A DNA stretch of 53,689 nt from a virus (Duplodnaviria; Caudoviricetes), in the IMG/VR virus record IMGVR_UViG_3300032212_000011, positions 1 to 53,689 of that record, one strand, 5' to 3'. The first letter of the stretch is position 1. Each line of letters starts with the position of its first letter. This document shows, one piece after another, positions 1 to 53,689 of the stretch. Both the position numbers and the translations under genes were made by a program. The notes below the pieces were generated by a model. That model was not told where the DNA came from and made no database searches. It saw only the letters and a list, made by a program, of their open reading frames with translations.

Positions 1-146
1 GTGCAACAACAGGAGAGCCAACGCTGATTATTTCAGCAGAAGCAGGCCTCTTGTCTATACAGGGTGCACCTAGTTATATACAAACTACTGTTGTAAATTC
101 TGTGGATGATGTGGATGAAGTGCATAGATATTTAAGCACTCAAAAG
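1..146. repeat. Terminal overlap, copy 1 (matches 53544-53689)
   Basis: 146-nt direct repeat with 2 mismatches (127 G vs 53670 A; 146 G vs 53689 A). It falls inside a gene, so it is a circularisation overlap. Confidence 0.95.
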
Positions 147-4415: not shown

Positions 4416-4589
4416 TAGGTTAAAAAATAGCCTATTTTTGGTCTTTTTAGCCCTTATTTTTGCCTATTAGGGGCTTTTTCAATAAAGTAGGTACTTACTA
4501 CGTCTGCAGACCTTGCTATCAAAGGGCTCAAAATCGAAAATAATCACGATTTAGGCCCAAAAGTTGTAGTTTTTATACGACCCATATAG

Positions 4590-4643
4590 TATAATAGTTG
4601 TAAGTTAAGGGAAAAGCCCTTAATTTTATCTAAAAACTGGAGA
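4590..4643 (+). promoter_or_regulatory. Early leader: TATAAT box, 5' hairpin and AAAACTGGAGA RBS motif
   Basis: TATAAT 4590-4595; TTAAGGG-AAAAG-CCCTTAA stem; motif 4633-4643; no good -35 at 17 bp. Confidence 0.5.
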
Positions 4644-4651
4644 TTTAAGAA

Positions 4652-5008
4652 ATGAAAAATTTATACCGATTTGTCCAAGAAATGATTTTATCTAAGGATG
4701 AAACTGAGACTACTTCTTTTATTCAAGAAGAGTACTATGCAAATTTGCTAGTTGATAATCATGGTTACTCAAAAAGAGCTGCTAAGGAAATTGCGAAAGT
4801 TTGTAAATATCAAAGAGATCAAGAAATTGAGGAAAAGATTGAGGATTTGCTTGAAAGCGTAGCAGAATTGCTAATTGAAAGAAGAGGGATTGATTCTTCA
4901 GAATTCTCAGATGAAGATGATTCTAAGCTTGATGAAATTGCCGATGACATCGCAGAAAATTCTTCAATTGAAGAGACTCTATCAGAAATGGTAAGAATAA
5001 ACCTTTAA
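4652..5008 (+). CDS. Hypothetical acidic early protein
   Basis: ORF with AAAACTGGAGA RBS; D/E-rich. Confidence 0.7.
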   Translation: MKNLYRFVQEMILSKDETETTSFIQEEYYANLLVDNHGYSKRAAKEIAKVCKYQRDQEIEEKIEDLLESVAELLIERRGIDSSEFSDEDDSKLDEIADDIAENSSIEETLSEMVRINL

Positions 5009-5016
5009 TTAAAGAT

Positions 5017-5046
5017 GCCAGTCGAAAGGCTGGCTAAAACTGGAGA
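5017..5046 (+). promoter_or_regulatory. GAAA-tetraloop hairpin followed by AAAACTGGAGA RBS motif
   Basis: GCCAGTC-GAAA-GGCTGGC then motif at 5036-5046. Confidence 0.6.
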
Positions 5047-5557: not shown

Positions 5558-5784
5558 CTAATTTACAAACAATCAGAATGAGATCATTATTTTCTGGTAA
5601 AACTACAGAAAGAGTGATTGCTTATCAGGATGCAGATTTACAGCGATTTTTCGCAGGAATGGATATTGATGAGGCTATGCCATATTTAAGTCCAGACGAC
5701 AAGAGATTCCTTTCTATGGGGATTACTCCAGAAGAGGCAAAGCTAATAAAGGAGCGAAAGAGGGGCTATTTGCGGGCGGGTTAA
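5554..5784 (+). CDS. Hypothetical phage protein
   Basis: ATGA overlap; IDEAMPYLSPDDKRFLSMGITPEE resembles a widespread small phage family. Confidence 0.65.
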   Translation: MTNLQTIRMRSLFSGKTTERVIAYQDADLQRFFAGMDIDEAMPYLSPDDKRFLSMGITPEEAKLIKERKRGYLRAG

Positions 5785-6054
5785 AATAGCTCCTTTAAGC
5801 CCTTAATACGTCTATTTAATACGGTTATATACCTATAGACGAGAAACGAGCGTGCATAGGGCTTACAAGAGCTATTTTAAGACCTTAAAAGGGCTTTTAT
5901 AGCAGTATATAGTAGGTATGAAGAAAAGTTGTATTTTTTGTTTCTTTTTTACCCAGTTGTCTATATACTACCCTTGTCTAGTAAATATACTAGATCGACC
6001 CAAGGAGTAATATTATATTGCTCTATTTTTTAAGATAAAACTGGAGATTCAAAA

Positions 6055-6979: not shown

Positions 6980-7435
6980 GTGAAGCTAACCATATTTGAT
7001 TTTGATGGAACATTAACTGCCAGCCTTTGGAGAAAGCAATTATATTTGGATGGGAAATATGATGATTTTCATGAAGCAGTTTCTGATGATATTGCCAATG
7101 AAAAAATATTTGATTTGTTTGCGTCAGCACTAGCAGAAGATGATCATGATGTAGTTATCTCTACAGCTAGACCCAGAAAGCATATAAAGTCTATGACAGA
7201 TTGGATAAGGGAAGAGGGCAGCTTTCTGAAATCTAAATTCTCAAGCATCCACATATATTGTAGGAGTGACTCAGACATAAGACCTAGCACTGAAGTCAAG
7301 AAAGACAATCTTGAGAGCTTATTGAGAAGACGTGGAGATGATTATGACTCTATTATTATTTATGAGGACCGTGAGGATTGCTGCCAAATGTACTCTGAGT
7401 TTGATGTAATAGTAGAGAAAGTGGAGGAGTTATGA
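6980..7435 (+). CDS. HAD-superfamily phosphatase (PNKP C-terminal-like), copy 1
   Basis: IFDFDGT motif I, ISTAR motif II, K, YEDR motif IV. Confidence 0.85.
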   Translation: MKLTIFDFDGTLTASLWRKQLYLDGKYDDFHEAVSDDIANEKIFDLFASALAEDDHDVVISTARPRKHIKSMTDWIREEGSFLKSKFSSIHIYCRSDSDIRPSTEVKKDNLESLLRRRGDDYDSIIIYEDREDCCQMYSEFDVIVEKVEEL

Positions 7436-7866
7436 GCAATGTATATGTATTTGACTTCGACGGAACAATCACTCAAAGCCTATGGAGAAATCACCATAGA
7501 CAAGAAAGGGACTATAGCACTTTTGATTCGCTACTAGCCTATGATGAACCAAATAATGATGTAGTTGGATTCATAAAGATGCTACAGAGCACTGGGCAAA
7601 TTATCATAGTATCGACTGCTAAATATGAAAGCAGAAGAGCGATGGTTACAAAATGGCTTCTGGAAAATAAAATATCTCCCAGATATATTTATATGAGAGA
7701 TGCTGGGGATTCTGAAACTGCTTCTGCCACAGTTAAATATAAAAATCTACAAAGGATATTGCTAACATTTTCTCCTACAGAAATAATCTGTATCGAGGAT
7801 GATGCAAAATGTATTGAGATGTATGAAGCAAATAATTGTATAGTTATACCTACTAGGAGAACATAA
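7432..7866 (+). CDS. HAD-superfamily phosphatase, copy 2
   Basis: VFDFDGT, VSTAK, YMRD, K, IEDD; clear paralogue of the upstream gene (SLWR shared). Confidence 0.85.
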   Translation: MSNVYVFDFDGTITQSLWRNHHRQERDYSTFDSLLAYDEPNNDVVGFIKMLQSTGQIIIVSTAKYESRRAMVTKWLLENKISPRYIYMRDAGDSETASATVKYKNLQRILLTFSPTEIICIEDDAKCIEMYEANNCIVIPTRRT

Positions 7867-8102
7867 TGGGCGACAAAAAGCAAGATACTGGAAAGCATTA
7901 CAGGAAAGAATACAAAGGAGTAAAGCTAGACCCTGCCAGAATAATAAAAGTTTATGGGGTGACTCACCCAATTCAATGTGGAGTGGTAAAGAAATCACTC
8001 AGGGCTGGACAAGGAAAGAAAACTCTATTGGAAGACATAAGGGATATCCAAACAGCATGCGATAGATGGATTGAGATGCTAGAAGAGGATGGAGAGATAT
8101 GA
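7866..8102 (+). CDS. Small conserved phage protein, DUF3310-like (possible nucleotide kinase)
   Basis: HY...D...K..RAG.K...EDI pattern reminiscent of DUF3310; translationally coupled. Confidence 0.45.
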   Translation: MGDKKQDTGKHYRKEYKGVKLDPARIIKVYGVTHPIQCGVVKKSLRAGQGKKTLLEDIRDIQTACDRWIEMLEEDGEI

Positions 8103-8779
8103 AAATTGTAATTGTAACTGGAGCAGAAAGCGGATTGGGGAAGGGAATTGCCAATCTATTTGAATCCAAAGGCTACCATGTTGTTAATCTTCCTAGGGAA
8201 ATATTTTGGGAAGATAATATGAAGTCTGCTATTGATTCTTTCATAGATGAAGTTGCTAGCACTTGCGATGTGTATGGCGTCATTAACTGTTTTGGAATCA
8301 ATCATCTTTCATTTATTGGAGAGACTCCTGAGGAAGATGAAAGAATATTTAGAATAAATGCCATGGGTCCATACTGGGTAATTAATGCGCTTAAAAGAAA
8401 TAAACAAGTCTGTAAAGTTTTGAATGTTTCATCCCAGACTTATCGAGTTGCTCAGAGAACTACTAGCATTTATTGCGCTAGCAAAGCAGCTCTATCGCAT
8501 ATGACTAAGGTTATGTCCAGAGAATTGGCTCCACACGGATGGCAAGTGAATGCTTACTCACCTGGCAAAATATTGGGAACTAAGATGGCTCGTAAAACTG
8601 ACAAGCAAGTTACAGAGCTAAGAGGTTGGGAAGATGATGATGCTGATGATTATGCCAAGAGTATGATTCCAGTAGGCAGATTTATGGATGTTGAAGAGGC
8701 ATCTCAAATAGCATATCAAATATTTGAATTGCCTCATTATGTAGCAGGGGAAACCATAGCTGCTACTGGAGGCGTTTGA
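8099..8779 (+). CDS. Short-chain dehydrogenase/reductase (SDR)
   Basis: TGAESGLG Rossmann motif, NVSS, YCASK catalytic YxxxK, VNAYSPG. Confidence 0.9.
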   Translation: MKIVIVTGAESGLGKGIANLFESKGYHVVNLPREIFWEDNMKSAIDSFIDEVASTCDVYGVINCFGINHLSFIGETPEEDERIFRINAMGPYWVINALKRNKQVCKVLNVSSQTYRVAQRTTSIYCASKAALSHMTKVMSRELAPHGWQVNAYSPGKILGTKMARKTDKQVTELRGWEDDDADDYAKSMIPVGRFMDVEEASQIAYQIFELPHYVAGETIAATGGV

Positions 8780-36013: not shown

Positions 36014-36044
36014 GATAGCATCTCCAATAATTAGTGAGGGTTAT

Positions 36045-36092
36045 AAAAAACGGCAGAGTATTTCATCTGCCAAAATGGTGGCCGAAGCCACC
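36045..36092 (-). terminator. Tandem hairpins / terminator after the capsid gene
   Basis: On the minus strand GGTGGC-TTCG-GCCACC, then GGCAGA-N8-TCTGCC-GTTTTTT. Confidence 0.75.
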
Positions 36093-36099
36093 CAGCCAA

Positions 36100-43422: not shown

Positions 43423-43668
43423 CTATTCCCTCAAACTTGAATCAATGTAATCAATTATGCTGTTGATATCTGTAAAATCTTCAACGTCATCATCACGAAT
43501 CTCACAATCTGTTGAGGACTCAATATCCATTACAATTTCAATTATATCAAGCGAATCAAAATCAGACATATCATCATGGATACCACGATGCTCTTTTTCA
43601 CCCATACTATTTCTGATAGCATCCAGCACTCTTTTTTCTATTTCATGTCTATCCATAATATGCTCCAA
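43423..43668 (-). CDS. Acyl carrier protein-like
   Basis: About 80 aa, acidic; DSLDIIEIVMDIE...EI.DDD.E phosphopantetheine-site pattern. Confidence 0.8.
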   Translation of the reverse strand: MEHIMDRHEIEKRVLDAIRNSMGEKEHRGIHDDMSDFDSLDIIEIVMDIESSTDCEIRDDDVEDFTDINSIIDYIDSSLRE

Positions 43669-43968: not shown

Positions 43969-44417
43969 TCAGTTTGTTGAGCATCAGTCAAATCTCCAAC
44001 AGACACAATATAGTCATTAACTACAGTCCACTCAGAGATTTGCTTAACATCTCTCATATCACTAATAGGCAACACGTAGCATATAGTAAACATATTGAAA
44101 TAGATATCAGCCCCAGATACTTTAAATTTTACATGGTTAAATAAGGTATCTTCAAAGAATTCTTTATTGTCCACATATAGCAATACATCATTCCGTGATA
44201 CATATCCTGTAACGTCTGCTACCTCAATTAATATGAAACCATCTGCTTCATCAGCCAATTGCTTTAGCTTTGCTTCTGAACTCACTGAATAAGCAGCATG
44301 GCTAGTGAGGTCTGGAGAAGTATAGATTTTAACAACGTCTACGTTACCATACCACCAACTCTCAGCAGATATGCCCATGCTCATTATGAGCAACAAAATA
44401 GATATGATCAATTTCAT
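43956..44417 (-). CDS. Hypothetical exported protein
   Basis: MKLIISILLLIMSMGISA signal-peptide-like N-terminus. Confidence 0.6.
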   Translation of the reverse strand: MKLIISILLLIMSMGISAESWWYGNVDVVKIYTSPDLTSHAAYSVSSEAKLKQLADEADGFILIEVADVTGYVSRNDVLLYVDNKEFFEDTLFNHVKFKVSGADIYFNMFTICYVLPISDMRDVKQISEWTVVNDYIVSVGDLTDAQQTECSL

Positions 44418-44578
44418 AATAATTCCTCTTCCTTTAGTATTTCTCTGATTTTAATCAGTGCTTTGTAATCATGCTCACTAACTTGATAGAAGCGCGCCTC
44501 CTCAACATGAGATACTGCATCAAATAAGTTCTCCAATTCTCCATCGGCAGCATTTCTAATCATAAGAAGTATTTCCAT
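44414..44578 (-). CDS. 54-aa hypothetical protein (not in the ORF track)
   Basis: MEILLMIRNAADGELENLF...EEELL; ATGA overlap with the next gene; fills the gap. Confidence 0.5.
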   Translation of the reverse strand: MEILLMIRNAADGELENLFDAVSHVEEARFYQVSEHDYKALIKIREILKEEELL

Positions 44579-44582
44579 TGGA

Positions 44583-45062
44583 TTATTTTTCATCTTCTTC
44601 TCCAGTTTCTACAGGTAGTCCATTTAATGTTATGTTAAGTCCCATTGAAGGGGAATCATCCTTTTTGTCCATTCCTTCAGTGAATGCCATTCCAGTCATA
44701 TCCATAATTTGTTTCGCAATAGGACTTGCTGATTTTGCTTCAACGTCAATGTTGTCCAACAAGTTTTCAACAACTTGACCTTTTACCCATACTCTTGTGT
44801 GTTTATATATCTTCTCTAGGTAGGATAATTGTAACTCGTTTAGGTTGTCAAAGTCTATATAGGCGACCATTGCTTCATCTAGTTCAGCAATGAGGGCAAA
44901 CTGCTGGAATTCCGTGAGCGCAATATGACACTCAACTGCCCAAACATAATCCTTGTTATTCTCTGCCATCCTCTTGGGGTTGTGAGCAGAGTACATATCA
45001 CATTTCCTAGCCATAGATACAGCAAATTTGGTTGGGAACAATGATGCTGGTAATTTTGCCAT
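44583..45062 (-). CDS. Hypothetical protein, candidate terminase small subunit
   Basis: First gene of the late arm, 159 aa, helical, with C-terminal LNITLNG strand; no diagnostic motif. Confidence 0.35.
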   Translation of the reverse strand: MAKLPASLFPTKFAVSMARKCDMYSAHNPKRMAENNKDYVWAVECHIALTEFQQFALIAELDEAMVAYIDFDNLNELQLSYLEKIYKHTRVWVKGQVVENLLDNIDVEAKSASPIAKQIMDMTGMAFTEGMDKKDDSPSMGLNITLNGLPVETGEEDEK

Positions 45063-45559: not shown

Positions 45560-47848
45560 TTATCTTAGACTAGTTCTAACCAGTTTCATCAAGATGCCCT
45601 TATTGTTCTCAGCTTTCATAGTCTCAATATAGCCATTCTCTTCCAACTCATTGATAAGTTGTCTTTTCTCGTTTGGCTTCATTCGAATCACTTTAGACAC
45701 ATTCATTGCATCACTACGCTTGATCCATTTGTTCAATCCAAACTTCTCTCGCATTCGTTTACATACTTGTGTCATTGCTACATCAAACTCACCCATGCCC
45801 ACTTCTTCCCTGAATAGCTTATCAGCATAACTACAACAATCTGTAGCAAACTGTAGGCTGCGATTCATTATCTCTTCTGTTATAATAGGCTCATAAGGAT
45901 TTTCTACAATTGCCTCTACCATAGCCAATTTCTTAGCATTAGCTGTGCGCCTGTTCCATATTTCCTTCAAATGTCCTTTTCTCTGGTTATCTTCCAGTCC
46001 GTGTTTATGTAGATGTTTCTTCAGCCCATCTGCTAAATATACAATCTTTGGTGAGTATCTGCGAGCAGAAGGTAATTTGTGCAGACCACGGACCAATTGT
46101 GAGGCATCAGACAGATACCTCAAATTTGCTTTCAGCTCTTCACTAAATCTGATATCAGTCTTTTTCTCTTCTCTAAGCAGACCTTTATACTTATCAGCAT
46201 CAAAGAACATAAAGCGAGAAAGCATACCCATACCAACAAATTTGTATTCTAGCGCAGGGATCAATAAAGCTTGAGTAGTTGCACCTATCATATTAATGTG
46301 GGGAGAGTGGAGATGTGTAATTATGGAATTGTCTTCACCTTTAGCATTTGCCTTGCGTCTTTTGGGAACCAGCATATCAGACCAAGTGTATGCTTTCATC
46401 AGGTCTTCAAATAGCTCTTGGAGTTTTGGATTAGATTTGGCTTTATCCAATAATCCGCCAAATTCATCGAAAACCATTAAGGCATCTTCATAAGGCACAC
46501 TTTGGAAAAGAAGGTCTTGGATACCTTCCATTGATGCAACTTTATGTACTATATTGGAAGAGCGTGCATCATATATAGGTTCATCTTCATCGAAGCATTC
46601 ATCAAATACAGTATTAATACCAAAATTGATTAAATCCTTTCCGCAGCCTGATTCACCAATTATTAGAGATTGGATATTCATACGGTCACCAATTTCTGAC
46701 CTGTATATTCCTGCACCACCGTGAGCTACCGTCATTCTTGCTACTACATTAGCCACCATCAAATTTGGTATCCAATGTAATTCGTACAAAGCCCTCACCA
46801 ATTCCCCGAATTTATTATCAGGGGCAAGAACTTCTTCATCCATGAGCTTAACTGTTTCAATTTCAGCATCTTCTTTCTCTTCAGCAATATCAACTTTGCG
46901 TTCAAGTAAGATTCTATCAAAAGCCCCATCTATATACTCATGGATGTTTTCGTCAGAGTTGCCTCTGGATTCTCTAATTTCATCAGGTAATTGAGAAAGC
47001 TTGCCTTTTATGATATAGAATACAGCATCCTTTTCCTGTACCTTATTCATATAATGTAGTGCTAACCCACGAAAATACCTGCGATGTACAGTTCCATCCA
47101 ATACATCAGAAGGAAGGTCAGCACTTTCATATTCATAACCAGAATACTCAAAAGTTGTTAATTGTCTTATTTCTTCTGGTGTGTACTTGGGTAGCAATAT
47201 CTGCTCAAAATCACCTTTTATGAATCCATGGCGCTTCTTTATGAAGTCTTTGTCTCCTTTTCGTATGATTGGAGGTGCTGTGTAAATTGGTTGGCTGCAA
47301 GTGAATACTGAAGTATCTGTGCCGAGTGTCGACGCATAGGCTTTTCTTTCTTGGAGCGATGTGAGCTTTGAACATTCAAAGTATAGTCTGATTCTTGCAT
47401 TATCTGATCCTAGTTTTTGAGAGCTTGTTATTTGCCAAGTGACATCACAAGCTATTTTATTGGACGAGAGCCAATTCTTTATGAATGACTCAGGTTTATT
47501 TGGATTCCATCCCTTGATAACTACGTCATCTAAATCAAGAGCTACAACTTTACCCATAGAATCACGGATTGTAGCAGGGTCATCTACTTTGTCTTTCTTA
47601 ATACGTCTGATTGGCTTCTTCTCATAAACTTGGGACTTACCATATTCTGTAAGTTCACCCAAAACTATGAAAGAATCTTCATCAGTTAATTGAACTGCCA
47701 TCATTTCGTGAAAGTTATCATATTCATATTCATTTGCTACAAACGAATAACCAGCTTTATATGATTCTATCGTGTTGCCAGATTTATCAATTATCTTGGT
47801 TGGCTTCTTATCACTCTTATGCGGCGATAATATAAGCATTTTTGCCAT
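45560..47848 (-). CDS. Primase-helicase-like replication protein with C-terminal P-loop ATPase (DUF3987-like)
   Basis: ALDLD in the N-terminal domain; IIGESGCGKD Walker A; MVFDEFG Walker B; AAAACTGGAGA RBS supports ATG 47848 rather than 47887. Confidence 0.7.
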   Translation of the reverse strand: MAKMLILSPHKSDKKPTKIIDKSGNTIESYKAGYSFVANEYEYDNFHEMMAVQLTDEDSFIVLGELTEYGKSQVYEKKPIRRIKKDKVDDPATIRDSMGKVVALDLDDVVIKGWNPNKPESFIKNWLSSNKIACDVTWQITSSQKLGSDNARIRLYFECSKLTSLQERKAYASTLGTDTSVFTCSQPIYTAPPIIRKGDKDFIKKRHGFIKGDFEQILLPKYTPEEIRQLTTFEYSGYEYESADLPSDVLDGTVHRRYFRGLALHYMNKVQEKDAVFYIIKGKLSQLPDEIRESRGNSDENIHEYIDGAFDRILLERKVDIAEEKEDAEIETVKLMDEEVLAPDNKFGELVRALYELHWIPNLMVANVVARMTVAHGGAGIYRSEIGDRMNIQSLIIGESGCGKDLINFGINTVFDECFDEDEPIYDARSSNIVHKVASMEGIQDLLFQSVPYEDALMVFDEFGGLLDKAKSNPKLQELFEDLMKAYTWSDMLVPKRRKANAKGEDNSIITHLHSPHINMIGATTQALLIPALEYKFVGMGMLSRFMFFDADKYKGLLREEKKTDIRFSEELKANLRYLSDASQLVRGLHKLPSARRYSPKIVYLADGLKKHLHKHGLEDNQRKGHLKEIWNRRTANAKKLAMVEAIVENPYEPIITEEIMNRSLQFATDCCSYADKLFREEVGMGEFDVAMTQVCKRMREKFGLNKWIKRSDAMNVSKVIRMKPNEKRQLINELEENGYIETMKAENNKGILMKLVRTSLR

Positions 47849-47974
47849 GAAAAATTTCTCCAGTTTTTCAACGTTATTATGAGCCAAGTATTATACGATA
47901 TAAAGGCGTCAATAGATATATGGTAGTTTGTATATATAATAAATGATCATTGATACAAAATATTTCCTAAATGC

Positions 47975-48003
47975 TTTACTTATCATTACCATAGTAATAT
48001 AAT
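47975..48003 (+). promoter_or_regulatory. Sigma70-like promoter starting the + strand arm
   Basis: TTTACT-17bp-TATAAT; same -35 as the capsid promoter. Confidence 0.7.
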
Positions 48004-48058
48004 ACTTCCCTAGCTCGAACGAGCGCATATAATACCTGCTAAAAACTGGAGAGTTACA

Positions 48059-48478
48059 ATGGCTAAAAAGACTGAGAAAGAACTGCTTCAACTTGTTGAA
48101 ACCCAAATTGCTAATAAAAATGCCTATAATAAGGCCAAAGCAAAAGAATTAGAGTCAAGAGAGGCATTGCTATCTATATTACCAGAATCTGGCTCCAAGA
48201 AAACCATGATGGTTGGTAAGTATAAAATAACACTTTCCCCAAAAGTCAACGTGAGTTTGGACAAAGATGAAATAACCAAGACCAAAATTATTGACGATGT
48301 TGATTGGAGTGAGTTGGATGATGAATCCCTATCATTATTGTCTAGTGAAACTAAATTTGATTCAACAGGATACAAGAAACTAGTCAAAGATAATCCTGAC
48401 ACCTTTTATGACATAATGGATTATGTTACTGAATCAATTGGACAAGGAACTGTAACAATAAAGTTTCCCAAAGAGTAG
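48059..48478 (+). CDS. Hypothetical early protein
   Basis: AAAACTGGAGA RBS 48042-48052; N-terminal coiled coil. Confidence 0.7.
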   Translation: MAKKTEKELLQLVETQIANKNAYNKAKAKELESREALLSILPESGSKKTMMVGKYKITLSPKVNVSLDKDEITKTKIIDDVDWSELDDESLSLLSSETKFDSTGYKKLVKDNPDTFYDIMDYVTESIGQGTVTIKFPKE

Positions 48479-48483
48479 AAAGT

Positions 48484-48541
48484 CCAAGTTCTGTGGAAGG
48501 CTTTTCTTCCCTCCAGTTTTGAAGTCGGAAGCAGAACTTGG
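48484..48541 (+). ncRNA. Candidate small RNA with a loop complementary to AAAACTGGAG leaders
   Basis: Perfect 10-bp closing stem CCAAGTTCTG/CAGAACTTGG enclosing CTTTTCTTCCCTCCAGTTTT. Confidence 0.5.
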
Positions 48542-48618
48542 CATTATTTTACGCTCAATTTGCGACTCCTATGGCAGGTTGGGCCTTTTTATTGAACTTG
48601 AATGTGAATGGAATAGAT

Positions 48619-48846
48619 ATGGCAACTTTAATAAATAACGTTGAGTTAGAGAGAATTGTGTCAAAGGTTCTTGAAGATGATATGAATAAGTGCTTGGATG
48701 AAACAGTTGCCAAAGTCATATCTGAATTACATGATAGAGTGAGGGTCAAGGTCGCAGCTAGAATGATAGCATTGTGTAGCTCTGATTACAACATGGAATA
48801 TCTCAGAAATGAACTGAGAATAAGTGTGAAGATTAATTCAAAATAA
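48619..48846 (+). CDS. Hypothetical protein
   Basis: ATG 48619 is more plausible than TTG 48538, which overlaps the RNA stem. Confidence 0.55.
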   Translation: MATLINNVELERIVSKVLEDDMNKCLDETVAKVISELHDRVRVKVAARMIALCSSDYNMEYLRNELRISVKINSK

Positions 48847-48856
48847 GCAATAGATT

Positions 48857-49093
48857 ATGAGTGATGACAAACTAGAGCCAATTGAGCAATTAAGATACTT
48901 TTGCTCTAATCATTTGCCTGCTGAAGCATGGTTAGATTCTGAAGATTACTTCGAGGCTGTGGTTGCAGAAATCAAACAACTAAAGAAAGAATTATCAGAA
49001 TGCATTGAAATGTATGACGATGGTCAAATTAACTATCATGCTGATGATTTAGCTGATGATGTTCGTGATCTACTAACAAACAATAAGGAATAA
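48857..49093 (+). CDS. Hypothetical protein
   Basis: ORF in a tightly packed operon. Confidence 0.6.
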   Translation: MSDDKLEPIEQLRYFCSNHLPAEAWLDSEDYFEAVVAEIKQLKKELSECIEMYDDGQINYHADDLADDVRDLLTNNKE

Positions 49094-49096
49094 AAG

Positions 49097-49351
49097 ATGA
49101 ATATGAAAGAAGCAACTGTTGATGATGAAGTGATTTCACACCCTGAGAATCAATGTTTTACTGCAGGCATTAATTTGCCAAAATGGGGCCATAAAATTGA
49201 AGTGCACAGTAGCAGCAGAGAAGGTGCTATTGCTGAGCGCGACCAAATTTTAAGCCTACTACAACAAGAACAAACTGTGAGAGATGAAGCGTTCAATCGT
49301 GGCTATGCTGCATGCAAGAATGCTATTATGGAGCTATTAAATGAAGCCTAA
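49097..49351 (+). CDS. Hypothetical protein
   Basis: AAGGA RBS; operon packing. Confidence 0.6.
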   Translation: MNMKEATVDDEVISHPENQCFTAGINLPKWGHKIEVHSSSREGAIAERDQILSLLQQEQTVRDEAFNRGYAACKNAIMELLNEA

Positions 49352-49958
49352 AAATATTGGTGGCATGAGAGTCCAAGAGCATGACCTTACATCAGAGAAT
49401 CCGTATGAGGCATTGGGTGTTCCATCTGACAGCAATAGAAGCCAAATCAAAGTTGCCTTCCTCAAACTAAGCAAAATATATCATCCTGACGTTGGAGGGG
49501 CAGTTGCTGACTTCCAAAAAGTTCAATGGGCCTACAAGATATTATCCAATGAAGAATCAAGAAAGTTGTATGATGAAACTGGAAGCACTGCTGCTAAGCA
49601 AGAATTGAATATCCACGCTCTTATGGCAAAAATAATGGGTGAGCAGCTATCAAAAGAAGGGTTTGAAGGAAACATCATCCAGACAATTCTCCTACGTCTA
49701 GATAACGACCTAAGAACCTATAAAAATAATATAAGGGAAGCTAGCAGAGGCGTACAAACGCTTAATAGGCAGCGTGGCAGAGTGCGCAATGATGAAGAAT
49801 ACAACATATTTGATGGATATCTAGATGAACAGATTCAAGGTGCCAAAAAGCAAATAGCAGTATTTGAAAAGGCACTAGAAGAAATTCAAATGGCAATAGA
49901 AGGCTTCAAAAATTATGAAGATACAAGACCTACTCAAAACCATGGGAGATTCTCATGA
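49341..49958 (+). CDS. J-domain (DnaJ type III) protein with C-terminal coiled coil
   Basis: PYEALGV...YHPD.GG...FQ.VQ.AY.ILS...R..YD. Confidence 0.9.
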   Translation: MKPKNIGGMRVQEHDLTSENPYEALGVPSDSNRSQIKVAFLKLSKIYHPDVGGAVADFQKVQWAYKILSNEESRKLYDETGSTAAKQELNIHALMAKIMGEQLSKEGFEGNIIQTILLRLDNDLRTYKNNIREASRGVQTLNRQRGRVRNDEEYNIFDGYLDEQIQGAKKQIAVFEKALEEIQMAIEGFKNYEDTRPTQNHGRFS

Positions 49959-50380
49959 TTGTCCAAGATGTTATAATGCTCCAAGTCCAACCCACGGGAG
50001 ACACTTGTGAGAGTGCTTGTATTGCGATGATCACGGGCAGACCTGTTTCTGATGTAATTGCTGAGTTCCATGATCATTATTGTAGAGGAACATTGGAGCC
50101 AATGCAGTTCTTTATTAGGCACAGCTATTACCCAAGACCTTGTAAGACAACTGAAAGATACCCAAAAATTGATAGAGTGTATATGGTAACTGTTCCCAGT
50201 CTTAACAATAGAGCTGTCAACCATTGCATAGTTTGGGATTGTAGAGATGATGTTAAAATCTTTGATCCTAATCAGGGTAGACCCAATATGAGGTATTATA
50301 CACTAGACAATTATCTTTTGGATAATGATCCTCTTGCTTACCAGTTAAGAAGCTATTGCTTGGAGTTTGAATTCCAATGA
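49955..50380 (+). CDS. Papain-fold / peptidase C39-like protein
   Basis: Q....TC..ACIAM, HCIV, IFDP catalytic pattern. Confidence 0.6.
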   Translation: MIVQDVIMLQVQPTGDTCESACIAMITGRPVSDVIAEFHDHYCRGTLEPMQFFIRHSYYPRPCKTTERYPKIDRVYMVTVPSLNNRAVNHCIVWDCRDDVKIFDPNQGRPNMRYYTLDNYLLDNDPLAYQLRSYCLEFEFQ

Positions 50381-50625: not shown

Positions 50626-50908
50626 AGTTTTGGTTTTGATGGATGAAAATGTATTCTGCGTTGCCACTGCTGCTAAAGCAATGGGGGTGAATAGCAAGGC
50701 AATATATCAGTATATCACTTCAATTGAATCCAAAATGGAGTTTGTTGTATATGAAATGTATGCTCCCATAACTGGAAAGAGAAAGAAACGAAAATACACT
50801 GAAAAAGGCAAGATATTGGTACAATTTGCCTATGAGGTTGTAGACTTATGCAATCGTTTAGAGGTAGAATTGTATTATAGCGATGAGGGTCGTAAATGTA
50901 TAGAATAG
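50552..50908 (+). CDS. Stand-alone LysR-type HTH protein (start probably ATG 50579 or later)
   Basis: VATAAKAMGV...AI...I..IE......Y...YTEKGKIL...A pattern of LysR N-terminal domains. Confidence 0.65.
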   Translation: MHKMNEVNQMNSIGMKRRLSFREIRVLVLMDENVFCVATAAKAMGVNSKAIYQYITSIESKMEFVVYEMYAPITGKRKKRKYTEKGKILVQFAYEVVDLCNRLEVELYYSDEGRKCIE

Positions 50909-51315
50909 TAACTGGAAACCACAAAACTCTGACTCAAATTTCAACAGAAGTTGAGCATGGTGAAGATTGCTCTAATCTCATTGATAAGATGAAAGAGCTG
51001 ATGATTGATAATTCTGGAATTGGATTAGCAGCTAATCAAGTTGATGTGGCCAAAAGAGTGATTGTTATGGTTTCTGGTAATACAGTTATTGAGCTCATTA
51101 ATCCTGAGATTACCAGACAATATTTTGGTAAGTCCAAAGGGTTGGAAGGCTGCTTATCCTTCCCAAACAAATTAGCAAAGATGTATAGATGGAACAGAGT
51201 CAATGTAAAAGGCTTTGACCGTGATTGGAATTTGATAGAATTGAAGCTGAAAGGTCTAGCAGCTCGATGTGTACAACATGAAATAGACCATTTAAATGGC
51301 ATAAATATTGCCTAA
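50896..51315 (+). CDS. def: Peptide deformylase (C-terminally short)
   Basis: GIGLAANQV, EGCLS, QHEIDHLNG. Confidence 0.95.
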   Translation: MYRIVTGNHKTLTQISTEVEHGEDCSNLIDKMKELMIDNSGIGLAANQVDVAKRVIVMVSGNTVIELINPEITRQYFGKSKGLEGCLSFPNKLAKMYRWNRVNVKGFDRDWNLIELKLKGLAARCVQHEIDHLNGINIA

Positions 51316-51316
51316 T

Positions 51317-51344
51317 TGAACCTTGAACTATGAACTATGAACTG
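51317..51344 (+). repeat. Four tandem 7-mers TGAAC(C/T)N ending in an RBS
   Basis: TGAACCT TGAACTA TGAACTA TGAACTG-GAG. Confidence 0.8.
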
Positions 51345-51353
51345 GAGAATACC

Positions 51354-51776
51354 ATGCAAGAAGTAAACATTATAATGTCACAGAACCCTGCTTTCAACTT
51401 CGTTGGAGTTAGATTCCTTGAAAGAGAAGGTTGTTTGTCTCATAAGACATATTACTACAAAACAGTTGAGCAATTAGCTGAGGGTGATCAAGTAGTTGTT
51501 GCAGTTGGAGCAGATTTGCGTTTCAAAGTAGCAGAAGTTGTTGAAATTGATTGTATGTATAAGGTTGATGGGACTTTCAAGTATAAGTGGATTGTTCAAA
51601 AGATTGACTCGTCAACTTACGAAGATTGTTTGAAGGTTGAGCATGAAGTTTCTGAAGCACTTGTCAAAACTCGTATGAATAAGATTCGAGAAGAGATTGG
51701 CGAGCAAATTAAGGAAACAATTGGCAAGGCCAACTACAAAAATCTTGTTAAGTTGGTTGATTTCAGTGCCAAATAA
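51354..51776 (+). CDS. Conserved-type phage hypothetical protein
   Basis: AACTGGAGA RBS favours ATG 51354; YYYKT...GD.VVV, KYKWIVQKID. Confidence 0.65.
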   Translation: MQEVNIIMSQNPAFNFVGVRFLEREGCLSHKTYYYKTVEQLAEGDQVVVAVGADLRFKVAEVVEIDCMYKVDGTFKYKWIVQKIDSSTYEDCLKVEHEVSEALVKTRMNKIREEIGEQIKETIGKANYKNLVKLVDFSAK

Positions 51777-52020
51777 GAACGACAATCGTCCAATCTGCAC
51801 TTGTGGAGCATATTCTTTCCCTCACAAGATAGGAGGCAAGTGCGATGGCACTGCCTTCGCAGAGTATTATTGGGGCTGGGAAAGACAAGATTGCAAATAT
51901 TGCAATTGTAATGTCAATGGACATTGTGAAGTTATTTCTGGCCAAGAATCAATTAAAGAGGCAGAGTGTTTCATAAATAATACAGATTATTATTTGAAGC
52001 TTTCGCCTGACTACTTTTAA
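51766..52020 (+). CDS. Cys-rich hypothetical protein
   Basis: CTCGAYSFPH..GGKC, CKYC.C....C; start uncertain (GTG 51766). Confidence 0.55.
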   Translation: MPNKNDNRPICTCGAYSFPHKIGGKCDGTAFAEYYWGWERQDCKYCNCNVNGHCEVISGQESIKEAECFINNTDYYLKLSPDYF

Positions 52021-52034
52021 AACTGGAGAATGTT

Positions 52035-53446: not shown

Positions 53447-53689
53447 ATGGGAATTAAAATAACATCTGTGGATGAGGCAATTGGGTCGAATGGACTCAAA
53501 ATCCTAGTCCACGGTCCAGCTGGGTCAGGAAAAACTGTGCTCAGTGCAACAACAGGAGAGCCAACGCTGATTATTTCAGCAGAAGCAGGCCTCTTGTCTA
53601 TACAGGGTGCACCTAGTTATATACAAACTACTGTTGTAAATTCTGTGGATGATGTGGATGAAGTGCATAAATATTTAAGCACTCAAAAA
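53447..53689 (+). CDS. Sak4-like ATPase, N-terminal part (continues at position 1)
   Basis: AAGGAG RBS; MGIKI...KILVHGPAGSGKT Walker A. Confidence 0.85.
   Translation, partial: MGIKITSVDEAIGSNGLKILVHGPAGSGKTVLSATTGEPTLIISAEAGLLSIQGAPSYIQTTVVNSVDDVDEVHKYLSTQK
53544..53689. repeat. Terminal overlap, copy 2 (matches 1-146)
   Basis: Direct comparison of the two ends. Confidence 0.95.

What the first reader, a model, noticed from the sequence alone, without database searches (positions are those of the whole stretch)
48484..48541. Candidate trans-acting small RNA antisense to the shared RBS of early genes
Seen: just after the first gene of the early arm, a perfect 10-bp stem (CCAAGTTCTG / CAGAACTTGG) encloses CTTTTCTTCCCTCCAGTTTT. 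Its CTCCAGTTTT (48511-48520) is the exact reverse complement of AAAACTGGAG, which forms the RBS of six genes (4633, 5036, 6037, 48042, 52019, and 47857-47867 on the minus strand for the primase). Pairing with the 5036 leader (AAAACTGGAGAAAGAAAA) can extend further. Read on the minus strand, this copy has no start codon at RBS distance, so it is not itself an RBS. Alternative inner pairings (GGAAG/CTTCC twice; GGCTTT/GAAGTC) could hide or expose the seed. Inference: one phage sRNA silences a dispersed regulon, including the gene it is co-transcribed with (negative feedback or early-to-late timer).
Basis: partly seen in the sequence, partly recalled or inferred. Interest (0 to 1): 0.85.

Follow-up and report, generated by a model that had tools for sequence, protein, structure and literature searches.

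The report
Anti-RBS hairpin after first early gene
An uncultured phage carries, just after its first early gene, an RNA hairpin whose open loop is the exact complement of the ribosome-binding sequence shared by six operon-leading genes, which could let one RNA switch those genes off, but this rests on one genome and no expression data.

Summary
AAAACTGGAG occurs 7 times (0.19 expected) and is the commonest 10-mer of this 53.7-kb phage record. Six copies lie 6-9 nt before start codons. The seventh, inverted, fills the 3' part of the 16-nt apical loop of hairpin H1 (48484-48541; -21.8 kcal/mol).

H1 lies in a 140-nt non-coding gap after gene 1 (DUF7173). A second, + strand-specific hairpin with a U-run (H2, 48553-48593) follows and looks like a terminator.

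The seed is predicted open (0.63 kcal/mol) and the 10-bp duplex is -12.3 kcal/mol. A complement of 10 nt or more in the 2,883 nt of sense non-coding sequence arose in 0.35% of shuffles.

Against it:
- Shuffled loops pair about as well by energy.
- The conserved 11th base is not matched.
- Anti-SD cores are not avoided in genes.
- No RNA data and no fetchable close relative exist.

Verdict: a real 3'-UTR RNA module. Functional anti-RBS pairing, in cis on gene 1 and possibly in trans, has probability about 0.4. A trans "regulon sRNA" remains unproven.

The parts
47975..48003 (+). Promoter-like site (TTTACT-17-TATAAT) upstream of gene 1. It is a prediction only.
   Evidence: 10 of 12 matches, but such sites are no more frequent than in shuffles (12 found, 10.4 expected). 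TATAATACTT is shared with the divergent primase promoter-like site.
48042..48051 (+). AAAACTGGAG ribosome-binding motif of gene 1. It is the proposed cis target, 460 nt upstream of the loop.
   Evidence: The ATG lies 7 nt after GGAG. The motif is mostly unpaired in the predicted transcript.
48059..48478 (+). Gene 1, 139 aa, DUF7173 / phrog_2480, function unknown. It is the first gene of the + arm.
   Evidence: 27.9 bits against a cut-off of 27. One close homologue of the same length, 52% identical.
48475..48552 (+). H1 extended hairpin. It adds A-rich/U-rich lower pairs around the core, from the stop codon region to the AU-rich spacer.
   Evidence: -25.8 kcal/mol.
48484..48541 (+). H1 core. 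It has an 11-bp lower stem, a symmetric GGAA/GGAA internal loop, a 6-bp upper stem with two G-U pairs, and a 16-nt apical loop.
   Evidence: -21.8 kcal/mol, z -2.67. The stem has probability about 1.0 in the 585-nt predicted transcript.
48505..48520 (+). Apical loop UCUUCCCUCCAGUUUU. Its last 10 nt (48511-48520) are the anti-RBS seed CUCCAGUUUU.
   Evidence: opening energy 0.63 kcal/mol; duplex -12.3; unpaired probability 0.61-0.98.
48542..48552 (+). AU-rich spacer CAUUAUUUUAC between H1 and H2.
   Evidence: Its likeness to the Hfq-binding spacers of sRNAs is an inference from recalled knowledge.
48553..48593 (+). H2: an 11-bp hairpin with three G-U pairs (48553-48584), then C and UUUUUAUU. 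Terminator-like.
   Evidence: -14.1 kcal/mol on +, -4.3 on -. The simple consensus scan did not list it. Other terminators of this genome end in GGGGCUUUUU-type tails.
48619..48846 (+). Gene 2, 75 aa. The true start is at 48619, so 48479-48618 is non-coding.
   Evidence: the only homologue (75 aa, 65% identical) aligns from residue 17 of the 91-aa call.
47858..47867 (-). AAAACTGGAG RBS of the primase gene, the first gene of the minus arm.
4633..4642 (+). AAAACTGGAG RBS of a 118-aa gene that follows a terminator and promoter region.
5036..5045 (+). AAAACTGGAG RBS of a 124-aa gene. Pairing with the loop can extend to the start codon.
   Evidence: -16.1 kcal/mol.
6037..6046 (+). AAAACTGGAG RBS of the first gene of the replication block (266 aa).
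52019..52028 (+). AAAACTGGAG RBS of a 129-aa gene.

Best explanation
H1 is an RNA stem-loop in the 3' untranslated region of the first early transcript. That transcript runs from a promoter near 47975-48003 through gene 1 (48059-48478) and H1 to the H2 terminator near 48590.

The long, rod-like stem holds a 16-nt loop open. The last ten bases of the loop, CUCCAGUUUU, include the anti-Shine-Dalgarno core CUCC. They are the exact complement of the AAAACUGGAG leader.

I propose that the loop pairs with this leader, competes with the 30S subunit and lowers translation. The first and kinetically favoured target is the RBS of its own mRNA, 460 nt upstream, which would make gene 1 self-limiting. As the terminated transcript or a 3' fragment of it accumulates, the same loop could pair in trans with the five other operon-leading genes that carry the identical leader. 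Weaker pairing is possible with two genes that carry ACUGGAG.

Shown: the structure, the complementarity, the predicted accessibility, the position and the rarity by chance. Inferred: transcription limits, pairing in vivo, any processing, any effect on translation, and the timing role.
For: - Exact 10-nt complement of the genome's most frequent 10-mer, which serves as RBS for six genes.
- The six leaders share nothing else. Outside the 11-mer their flanks match at 1-13 of 25 positions, so the 11-mer is an island under selection and something reads it.
- The complement lies in the apical loop of the most conspicuous hairpin of a proven non-coding gap.
- Seed opening energy is 0.63 kcal/mol, the duplex is -12.3 and target opening costs 0.7-4.0.
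- In a 585-nt model transcript H1 forms with probability about 1.0, and both seed and RBS stay largely unpaired.
- Only 0.35% of 20,000 shuffles of the non-coding sequence give such a complement.
- It is the only 10-nt anti-RBS hit in sense non-coding sequence, and the only one at k = 8, 9 or 10 that matches more than two genes.
- H2 is strongly + strand-specific and ends in a U-run, so the RNA strand is the transcribed one and a defined 3' end is likely.
- Precedents, from abstracts read and passages read. The icaR 3'-UTR motif pairs with its own SD. aSD-like 8-mers several hundred nt downstream of an RBS pair with it and repress in B. subtilis. The P1/P7 c4 RNA pairs through loops with an RBS region.
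Against: - Loops shuffled to the same composition give similar duplex energies with the 76 start regions: the best averages -16.6 kcal/mol, and 4.7% of 300 shuffles reach the observed 17 targets at -12 or below. Energy alone is therefore not special.
- The loop has C opposite the conserved 11th base A of all six leaders.
- Anti-RBS k-mers as a class are not enriched in non-coding sequence. I found 1, 3 and 5 hits at k = 10, 9 and 8, against roughly 1, 3 and 10 expected by my arithmetic.
- CTCCA is not depleted in coding sense strands: 56 observed against 35.5 expected, z +3.65. This phage therefore shows no general pressure against anti-SD cores.
- H1 folds as well on the minus strand, -22.3 against -21.8 kcal/mol.
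- No Rfam family matches.
- The distant relatives I could read have neither gene 1 nor the motif nor the hairpin.
- The host, and whether it has Hfq, is unknown.
Confidence: 0.4

Rival explanations
1. H1 is an ordinary 3'-end structure of the gene 1 transcript, and the loop's match to the leader motif is chance. H1 might be a stabilising hairpin, the first half of a tandem terminator, an RNase III-type processing site, or a put/nut-like element that modulates read-through of H2.
For: - Tandem hairpins at operon ends occur elsewhere in this genome, for example at 36014-36099 and 4416-4480.
- H1 is flanked by an A-rich 5' run and a U-rich 3' run, like a terminator.
- C/U-rich shuffled loops pair with purine-rich start regions about as well.
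- Anti-RBS k-mers in non-coding sequence occur at about the chance number overall.
- Any 200-nt stretch has about 25 exact 10-mer matches elsewhere in the genome.
- The finding was picked from a very large scan, so a coincidence at the 0.35% level will turn up.
Against: - The match is to the single most repeated motif, not to any 10-mer.
- It lies wholly in the open loop rather than in a stem.
- A 16-nt loop is unusual for a plain terminator or stabiliser, on recalled knowledge.
Confidence: 0.35
2. The 11-mer is read by a protein, and the inverted copy in H1 is a seventh binding site or irrelevant. The protein could be a translational repressor or a leader-cutting nuclease in the manner of T4 RegA or RegB, or a DNA-binding regulator.
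For: - The 11-mer is an island of identity in otherwise unlike leaders.
- T4 shuts off early mRNAs through proteins acting on their start regions. RegB cuts GGAG in early Shine-Dalgarno sequences and cooperates with T4 polynucleotide kinase (passages of PMC3014915).
- This phage encodes two polynucleotide-kinase-like proteins.
- A DNA-binding protein would accept either orientation.
Against: - No RegA-like or RegB-like family was found among the 30 + arm proteins scanned against PHROGs.
- The fixed 6-9 nt spacing to the ATG and the single orientation of the six sites point to the RNA level. At that level the seventh copy is the complement, not a site.
- Nothing explains why a DNA site should sit in a hairpin loop.
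Confidence: 0.1
3. The minus-strand copy is a relic of an inverted, decayed leader cassette and has no present function.
For: With one small gap, the minus strand reads AAAACTGGAG-G-GAAGAAAA against AAAACTGGAG-AAAGAAAA at 5036. Both also have ATGCCA 15-18 nt upstream.
Against: - Ungapped flank identity to the six leaders is 4-10 of 25 upstream and 3-8 of 25 downstream, no better than between unrelated leaders.
- blastn-short finds only the 10-mer.
- There is no start codon or ORF remnant at RBS distance.
Confidence: 0.05

Closest known systems
icaR mRNA 3'-UTR / 5'-UTR interaction of Staphylococcus aureus (PMC3868564; abstract read)
   Same: A pyrimidine-rich anti-SD motif in the 3'-UTR of an mRNA is complementary to the Shine-Dalgarno region of the same mRNA. 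The proposed outcome is blocked initiation.
   Different: - Here the complement is 10 nt, lies in an apical loop and also matches five other genes.
- It is a phage, not a bacterial chromosome.
- Nothing has been tested, and RNase III involvement is unknown.
Long-range anti-SD-like sequences within mRNAs (Gill et al., PMC12697547; abstract read)
   Same: An aSD-like sequence hundreds of nt downstream of an RBS on the same RNA, said there to pair with the RBS, promote decay and inhibit initiation.
   Different: That work reports depletion of such sequences in endogenous genes. This phage shows no depletion of CTCC or CTCCA in its genes. The element here is in a structured 3'-UTR.
c4 antisense RNA of phages P1/P7 (passages of review PMC12197685). 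The related P4 CI RNA and the Rfam C4 family are recalled, not looked up.
   Same: A phage RNA made from the same transcription unit as its target pairs through loop sequences with the region around a ribosome-binding site.
   Different: - No Rfam family reached its gathering score anywhere in the window, and none came near it around H1, so it is not a member.
- c4 controls one operon (ant), not a dispersed set.
- c4 belongs to temperate-phage immunity.
3'-UTR-derived, terminator-ending base-pairing sRNAs of bacteria (for example CpxQ, SroC; recalled, not looked up)
   Same: The layout is a seed-bearing stem-loop, an AU-rich spacer, then a terminator hairpin with a U-tail at the end of an mRNA.
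   Different: No evidence of processing, of an internal promoter or of Hfq. The host is unknown.
T4 RegA and RegB (review PMC3014915; passages read)
   Same: A phage shuts down many early genes after transcription through sequence shared by their translation start regions. GGAG is a frequent early SD.
   Different: Those readers are proteins. Here the candidate reader is an RNA loop.

Membership tests
Base-pairing sRNA / 3'-UTR-derived regulatory RNA | Seed complementary to the translation start region of target mRNAs | tested here: met
   Exact 10-nt complement to six RBSs. At least 8 nt matches eight genes. But shuffled loops give similar energies.
Base-pairing sRNA / 3'-UTR-derived regulatory RNA | Seed single-stranded in the RNA's own fold | tested here: met
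   Opening energy 0.63 kcal/mol. Unpaired probability 0.61-0.98 in the 585-nt transcript model. Prediction only.
Base-pairing sRNA / 3'-UTR-derived regulatory RNA | Intrinsic terminator at the 3' end | tested here: inconclusive
   H2 is an 11-bp hairpin followed by CUUUUUAUU, at -14.1 kcal/mol on + against -4.3 on -. The consensus scan listed no terminator here; H2 has a longer loop than that scan allows.
Base-pairing sRNA / 3'-UTR-derived regulatory RNA | A discrete RNA species accumulates | not testable with these tools
   The only run that holds the sequence is a DNA run, which may be the source.
Base-pairing sRNA / 3'-UTR-derived regulatory RNA | Seed and target conserved or covarying in relatives | not testable with these tools
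   Close relatives exist only as proteins. The 24 readable loci and the record G001 are too distant and lack gene 1, the motif and the hairpin.
icaR-type 3'-UTR / 5'-UTR anti-SD interaction | Anti-SD motif in the 3'-UTR of the same mRNA that carries the SD | tested here: met
   RBS at 48042-48051 and loop at 48511-48520 lie on one strand with no terminator-like structure between them. Gene 1 is the only ORF between. Co-transcription is inferred.
icaR-type 3'-UTR / 5'-UTR anti-SD interaction | Pairing blocks initiation and creates an RNase III substrate | not testable with these tools
   Needs toeprinting, reporters and RNase III assays. Nested folding cannot score a loop-to-5'-end pseudoknot.
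C4 antisense RNA family (P1/P7 c4, P4 CI) | Match to the curated covariance model | tested here: not met
   No Rfam family at gathering score in the whole window. Around H1 there were only 5 matches at E 3.8-8.3, to snoRNA or miRNA models, far below their thresholds.
Ribosome-binding site (for the minus-strand copy itself) | Start codon 5-13 nt downstream, followed by an ORF | tested here: not met
   No ATG, GTG or TTG follows GGAG on the minus strand within that distance. The 36-aa minus ORF starts upstream of the motif.

The most novel reading that the evidence does not exclude
One RNA loop, made as the 3' end of the very first early transcript, acts as a master anti-RBS. As it accumulates it pairs with the identical 10-nt leader of every operon-leading early and replication gene: gene 1 itself, the primase, the gene opening the replication block and three small genes. 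It thereby closes the early programme after transcription. This would be an RNA counterpart of T4 RegA/RegB and an intrinsic early-to-late timer encoded in 58 nt.
Probability: 0.2. Interest if true: 0.8.

Novelty: new variant of a known kind. Interest (0 to 1): 0.5.

Why it matters
Known phage-encoded RNAs mostly act on one phage gene (c4, OOP, sar) or on host genes. Global shut-off of phage early genes is known for proteins (T4 RegA, RegB). A 3'-UTR loop that reads a leader shared by all operon-first genes would be a compact RNA-only way to time a lytic programme.

The idea is simple to test with reporters and compensatory mutations.

Even the minimal cis version would be a phage example of the 3'-UTR to RBS feedback so far described in bacterial mRNAs.

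The exact 11-mer island in six otherwise unlike leaders needs an explanation in any case.

Tried and rejected
**Relatives, all blank for the question**
- megablast of 47500-49500 against phages gave no match.
- tblastn of the primase against phages gave 8 records, at 23.3% identity or less.
- Gene 1 against phages gave none.
- Distant blastn of 48440-48640 gave two 24-nt chance hits.
- Viral contigs found nothing with gene 1, the primase alone, the 49955-50380 protein or a 19-nt loop pattern.
- With a 5-sequence primase alignment I obtained 19 metagenome, 4 viral and 1 genome locus. All are at most 49% identical over part of the primase.
- None of these 24 loci encodes gene 1. One of 24 has the motif once, and 0 of 24 have its complement.
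- The pattern AAACTGGAG is absent from the two relatives' records that are held; three of the five loci asked for were not held.
- The 46.5-kb relative G001 uses CTTTTGGAG as RBS at 5 genes. Its 4 other copies lie inside ORFs, and there is no intergenic complement.
- A covariance model of H1+H2 found only itself in 262 kb (150.4 bits), plus one 9-bit match at E = 6.

**Expression**
- No RNA holder was listed. The single DNA run may be the source, and its contig is identical, so it gives no variation.

**Gene 1 function**
- Only 6 proteins in 1.84 billion representatives scored at E of 0.001 or better.
- The AlphaFold model has pLDDT 67, and Foldseek against the PDB gave nothing at E of 0.001 or better. 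Its function stays unknown.

**Other readings rejected**
- tRNA or tmRNA: none found.
- Inverted leader relic.
- Internal sRNA promoter: only a 9-of-12 consensus match at 48396-48424, at background frequency.
- Minus-strand RBS.
- H2 as the coding start of gene 2.

- Supplements were not consulted.

Full report
**What the window is**

The window is a whole IMG/VR virus record of 53,689 nt, rated 100% complete. The only sequencing run that holds it is labelled a microbial-mat metagenome.

Bases 1-126 recur at 53544-53669, and the run's own contig is 53,573 nt. The genome is therefore probably circular or terminally redundant.

Genes form two arms. A + arm runs from 48059 over the end of the record to 15531. 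It carries small unknown genes, a DnaJ-domain protein, a peptide deformylase, a Sak4-like protein, SSB, a Cas4-type exonuclease, a helicase, two polynucleotide-kinase-like proteins, a DNA polymerase, a ligase and a thymidylate synthase. A minus arm runs from the primase at 47848 down to 15643.

The two arms diverge from a 210-nt region with sigma-70-like promoter matches. No phage RNA polymerase was seen among the 30 + arm proteins scanned. "Early" is an inference from gene content.

**Check of the observation**

Every sequence statement holds, apart from a one-base slip: the primase copy is at 47858-47867. AAAACTGGAG occurs 7 times against 0.19 expected, and 0 of 100 shuffles reach 7. It is the commonest 10-mer of the genome, and AAAACTGGAGA is the commonest 11-mer, with six copies.

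The six 11-mer copies lie 6-9 nt before the ATG of genes at 4652, 5053, 6055, 48059, 52035 and (minus strand) 47848. Four of them follow long gaps with terminators and promoter-like sites, so they lead transcription units.

Outside the 11-mer the six leaders are unlike each other, matching at 1-13 of 25 flank positions. The 11-mer is thus an island of identity, not a recent duplication.

The phage's general Shine-Dalgarno form is UGGAGA. Two more genes carry ACUGGAGA: 44414-44593 (minus strand, start at 44593) and 51354.

**The seventh copy**

The seventh copy is inverted and lies at 48511-48520. On the minus strand no start codon follows it. On the transcribed + strand it reads CUCCAGUUUU.

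**Anatomy**

The gap 48479-48618 is non-coding. The gene 1 homologue has the same length, and the only gene 2 homologue starts at the equivalent of 48619.

H1 (48484-48541) folds into the following parts (-21.8 kcal/mol, z -2.67, 5 of 200 shuffles as good):
- an 11-bp lower stem;
- a symmetric GGAA/GGAA internal loop, which by recalled knowledge of tandem G-A pairs should stack;
- a 6-bp upper stem with two G-U pairs;
- a 16-nt apical loop, UCUUCCCUCCAGUUUU.

A-rich and U-rich flanks extend H1 to 48475-48552. An AU-rich spacer follows. Then comes H2 (48553-48584), an 11-bp hairpin with three G-U pairs, followed by CUUUUUAUU.

H2 is strongly strand-specific, at -14.1 kcal/mol on + against -4.3 on -. 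Its GGGC-plus-U-run end resembles other terminators of this genome. The simple consensus scan did not list it.

H1 itself folds equally well on either strand. The 131-nt region has z -3.02, with 0 of 200 shuffles as stable.

**Is the loop fit to pair?**

- The seed costs 0.63 kcal/mol to open, the 10-bp duplex is -12.3 kcal/mol and the six targets cost 0.7-4.0 to open.
- In a 585-nt model of the gene 1 transcript H1 forms with probability about 1.0.
- In the same model the seed is unpaired with probability 0.61-0.98, and the gene 1 RBS is mostly unpaired.
- Nested folding cannot score the loop-to-leader contact itself.

**Is it more than chance?**

For:
- In 20,000 shuffles of the 2,883 nt of non-coding sequence, read in the sense of transcription, a complement of 10 nt or more of the 11-mer appeared in 0.35%. 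For 9 nt the figure was 2.0%, and for 8 nt 8.8%.
- It is the only 10-nt anti-RBS hit in that sequence.
- It is also the only hit at k = 8, 9 or 10 that matches more than two genes.

Against:
- Anti-RBS k-mers as a class occur at about the number expected by my arithmetic.
- Any 200-nt stretch has about 25 exact 10-mer matches somewhere in the genome.
- Loops shuffled to the same composition pair with the 76 start regions about as well. The best averages -16.6 kcal/mol, and 4.7% of 300 shuffles reach the observed 17 targets at -12 or below.
- The loop has C opposite the conserved 11th base.
- CTCCA is over-represented rather than avoided in coding sense strands, z +3.65.

**Comparative and expression evidence: none could be had**

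Close relatives exist: primase at 83, 66 and 52% identity, gene 1 at 52% and gene 2 at 65%. They are known only as proteins from ENA, Logan or NCBI, without accession numbers. The tool that would fetch their contigs is closed.

The 24 loci and one 46.5-kb record that I could read are distant. They lack gene 1, the motif and the hairpin.

That record does use its own extended RBS, CUUUUGGAG, at five genes, with no intergenic complement.

No RNA run holds the phage. No Rfam family matches.

**Interpretation**

With good confidence, H1-H2 is an RNA module at the 3' end of the first early transcript.

For the loop I favour functional pairing with the AAAACUGGAG leader, at probability about 0.4. 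This is because it gives the otherwise unexplained 11-mer island a reader. The same logic has been shown in bacteria, for the icaR 3'-UTR (abstract) and for distant aSD-like sequences (abstract). It has also been shown in phages, for the c4 RNA (passages).

The cis contact with gene 1's own RBS needs the fewest assumptions.

The main rival, at about 0.35, is a plain terminator-associated or processing hairpin with a chance match. Protein readers of the motif in the manner of T4 RegA or RegB (passages) stand at about 0.1, and a decayed inverted leader at about 0.05.

**Novelty**

If real, this is a new variant of known kinds (3'-UTR anti-SD elements, loop-seed phage RNAs) rather than a new principle. 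It is not a member of the C4 family.

My two full-text searches and the passages I read of the 2025 review of phage sRNAs showed no phage RNA that reads a leader shared by many phage operons. These were narrow searches and do not show that none is in print.

Noticed in passing
window 1-126 and 53544-53669: The first 126 bases recur near the end of the record, and the run's own contig is 53,573 nt. The record is classed 'linear' but is probably circular or terminally redundant, with a unit length of about 53.54 kb.
   Followed up: partly
window 45079 (+), 47924 (+), 53630 (-) and 87 (-): TAGTTTGTATA occurs four times. The copies at 87 and 53630 are the same copy in the end overlap. The copy at 47924 lies in the divergent promoter region. 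It could be a promoter or operator element.
   Followed up: no
window 51316-51353: Four imperfect tandem heptamers (TGAACCT TGAACTA TGAACTA TGAACTG) run straight into the GGAG of the RBS of the gene at 51354.
   Followed up: no
window 6021-6030: CTCTATTTTT lies 6 nt upstream of the 6037 leader motif and is its complement with two mismatches. It may be a local RBS-sequestering hairpin, although the MFE of the spacer uses it differently.
   Followed up: partly
window 48571-48846: The record's own gene call for gene 2 (91 aa from 48571) is probably 16 codons too long. The only homologue (75 aa) starts at the equivalent of 48619, and 48571 lies inside the terminator-like hairpin H2.
   Followed up: yes
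window 6980-7866, 49341-49958, 50896-51315, 8099-8779: Auxiliary genes: two adjacent polynucleotide-kinase-like genes, a DnaJ-domain protein, a peptide deformylase and a FabG-like reductase.
   Followed up: partly
whole window, coding strands: TGGAG and its complement CTCCA are both over-represented in coding sense strands relative to synonymous-codon shuffles (z +5.07 and +3.65). The cause is unknown.
   Followed up: no
G001 (loci L026-L028), record positions about 43596-43641 and 43684: The 46.5-kb distant relative has two GCTATATATAGC palindromes 22 nt apart, beside the first gene divergent from its primase (operator-like). It uses CTTTTGGAG as RBS at five genes.
   Followed up: partly
window 5785-5876: A long imperfect hairpin (AAUAGCUCCUUUAAGCCC ... 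GGGCUUACAAGAGCUAUU) lies right after the gene ending at 5784, ahead of a second terminator-like hairpin. This is another tandem 3' structure, and its 5' arm carries a 9-nt complement of one gene's RBS (49341).
   Followed up: no
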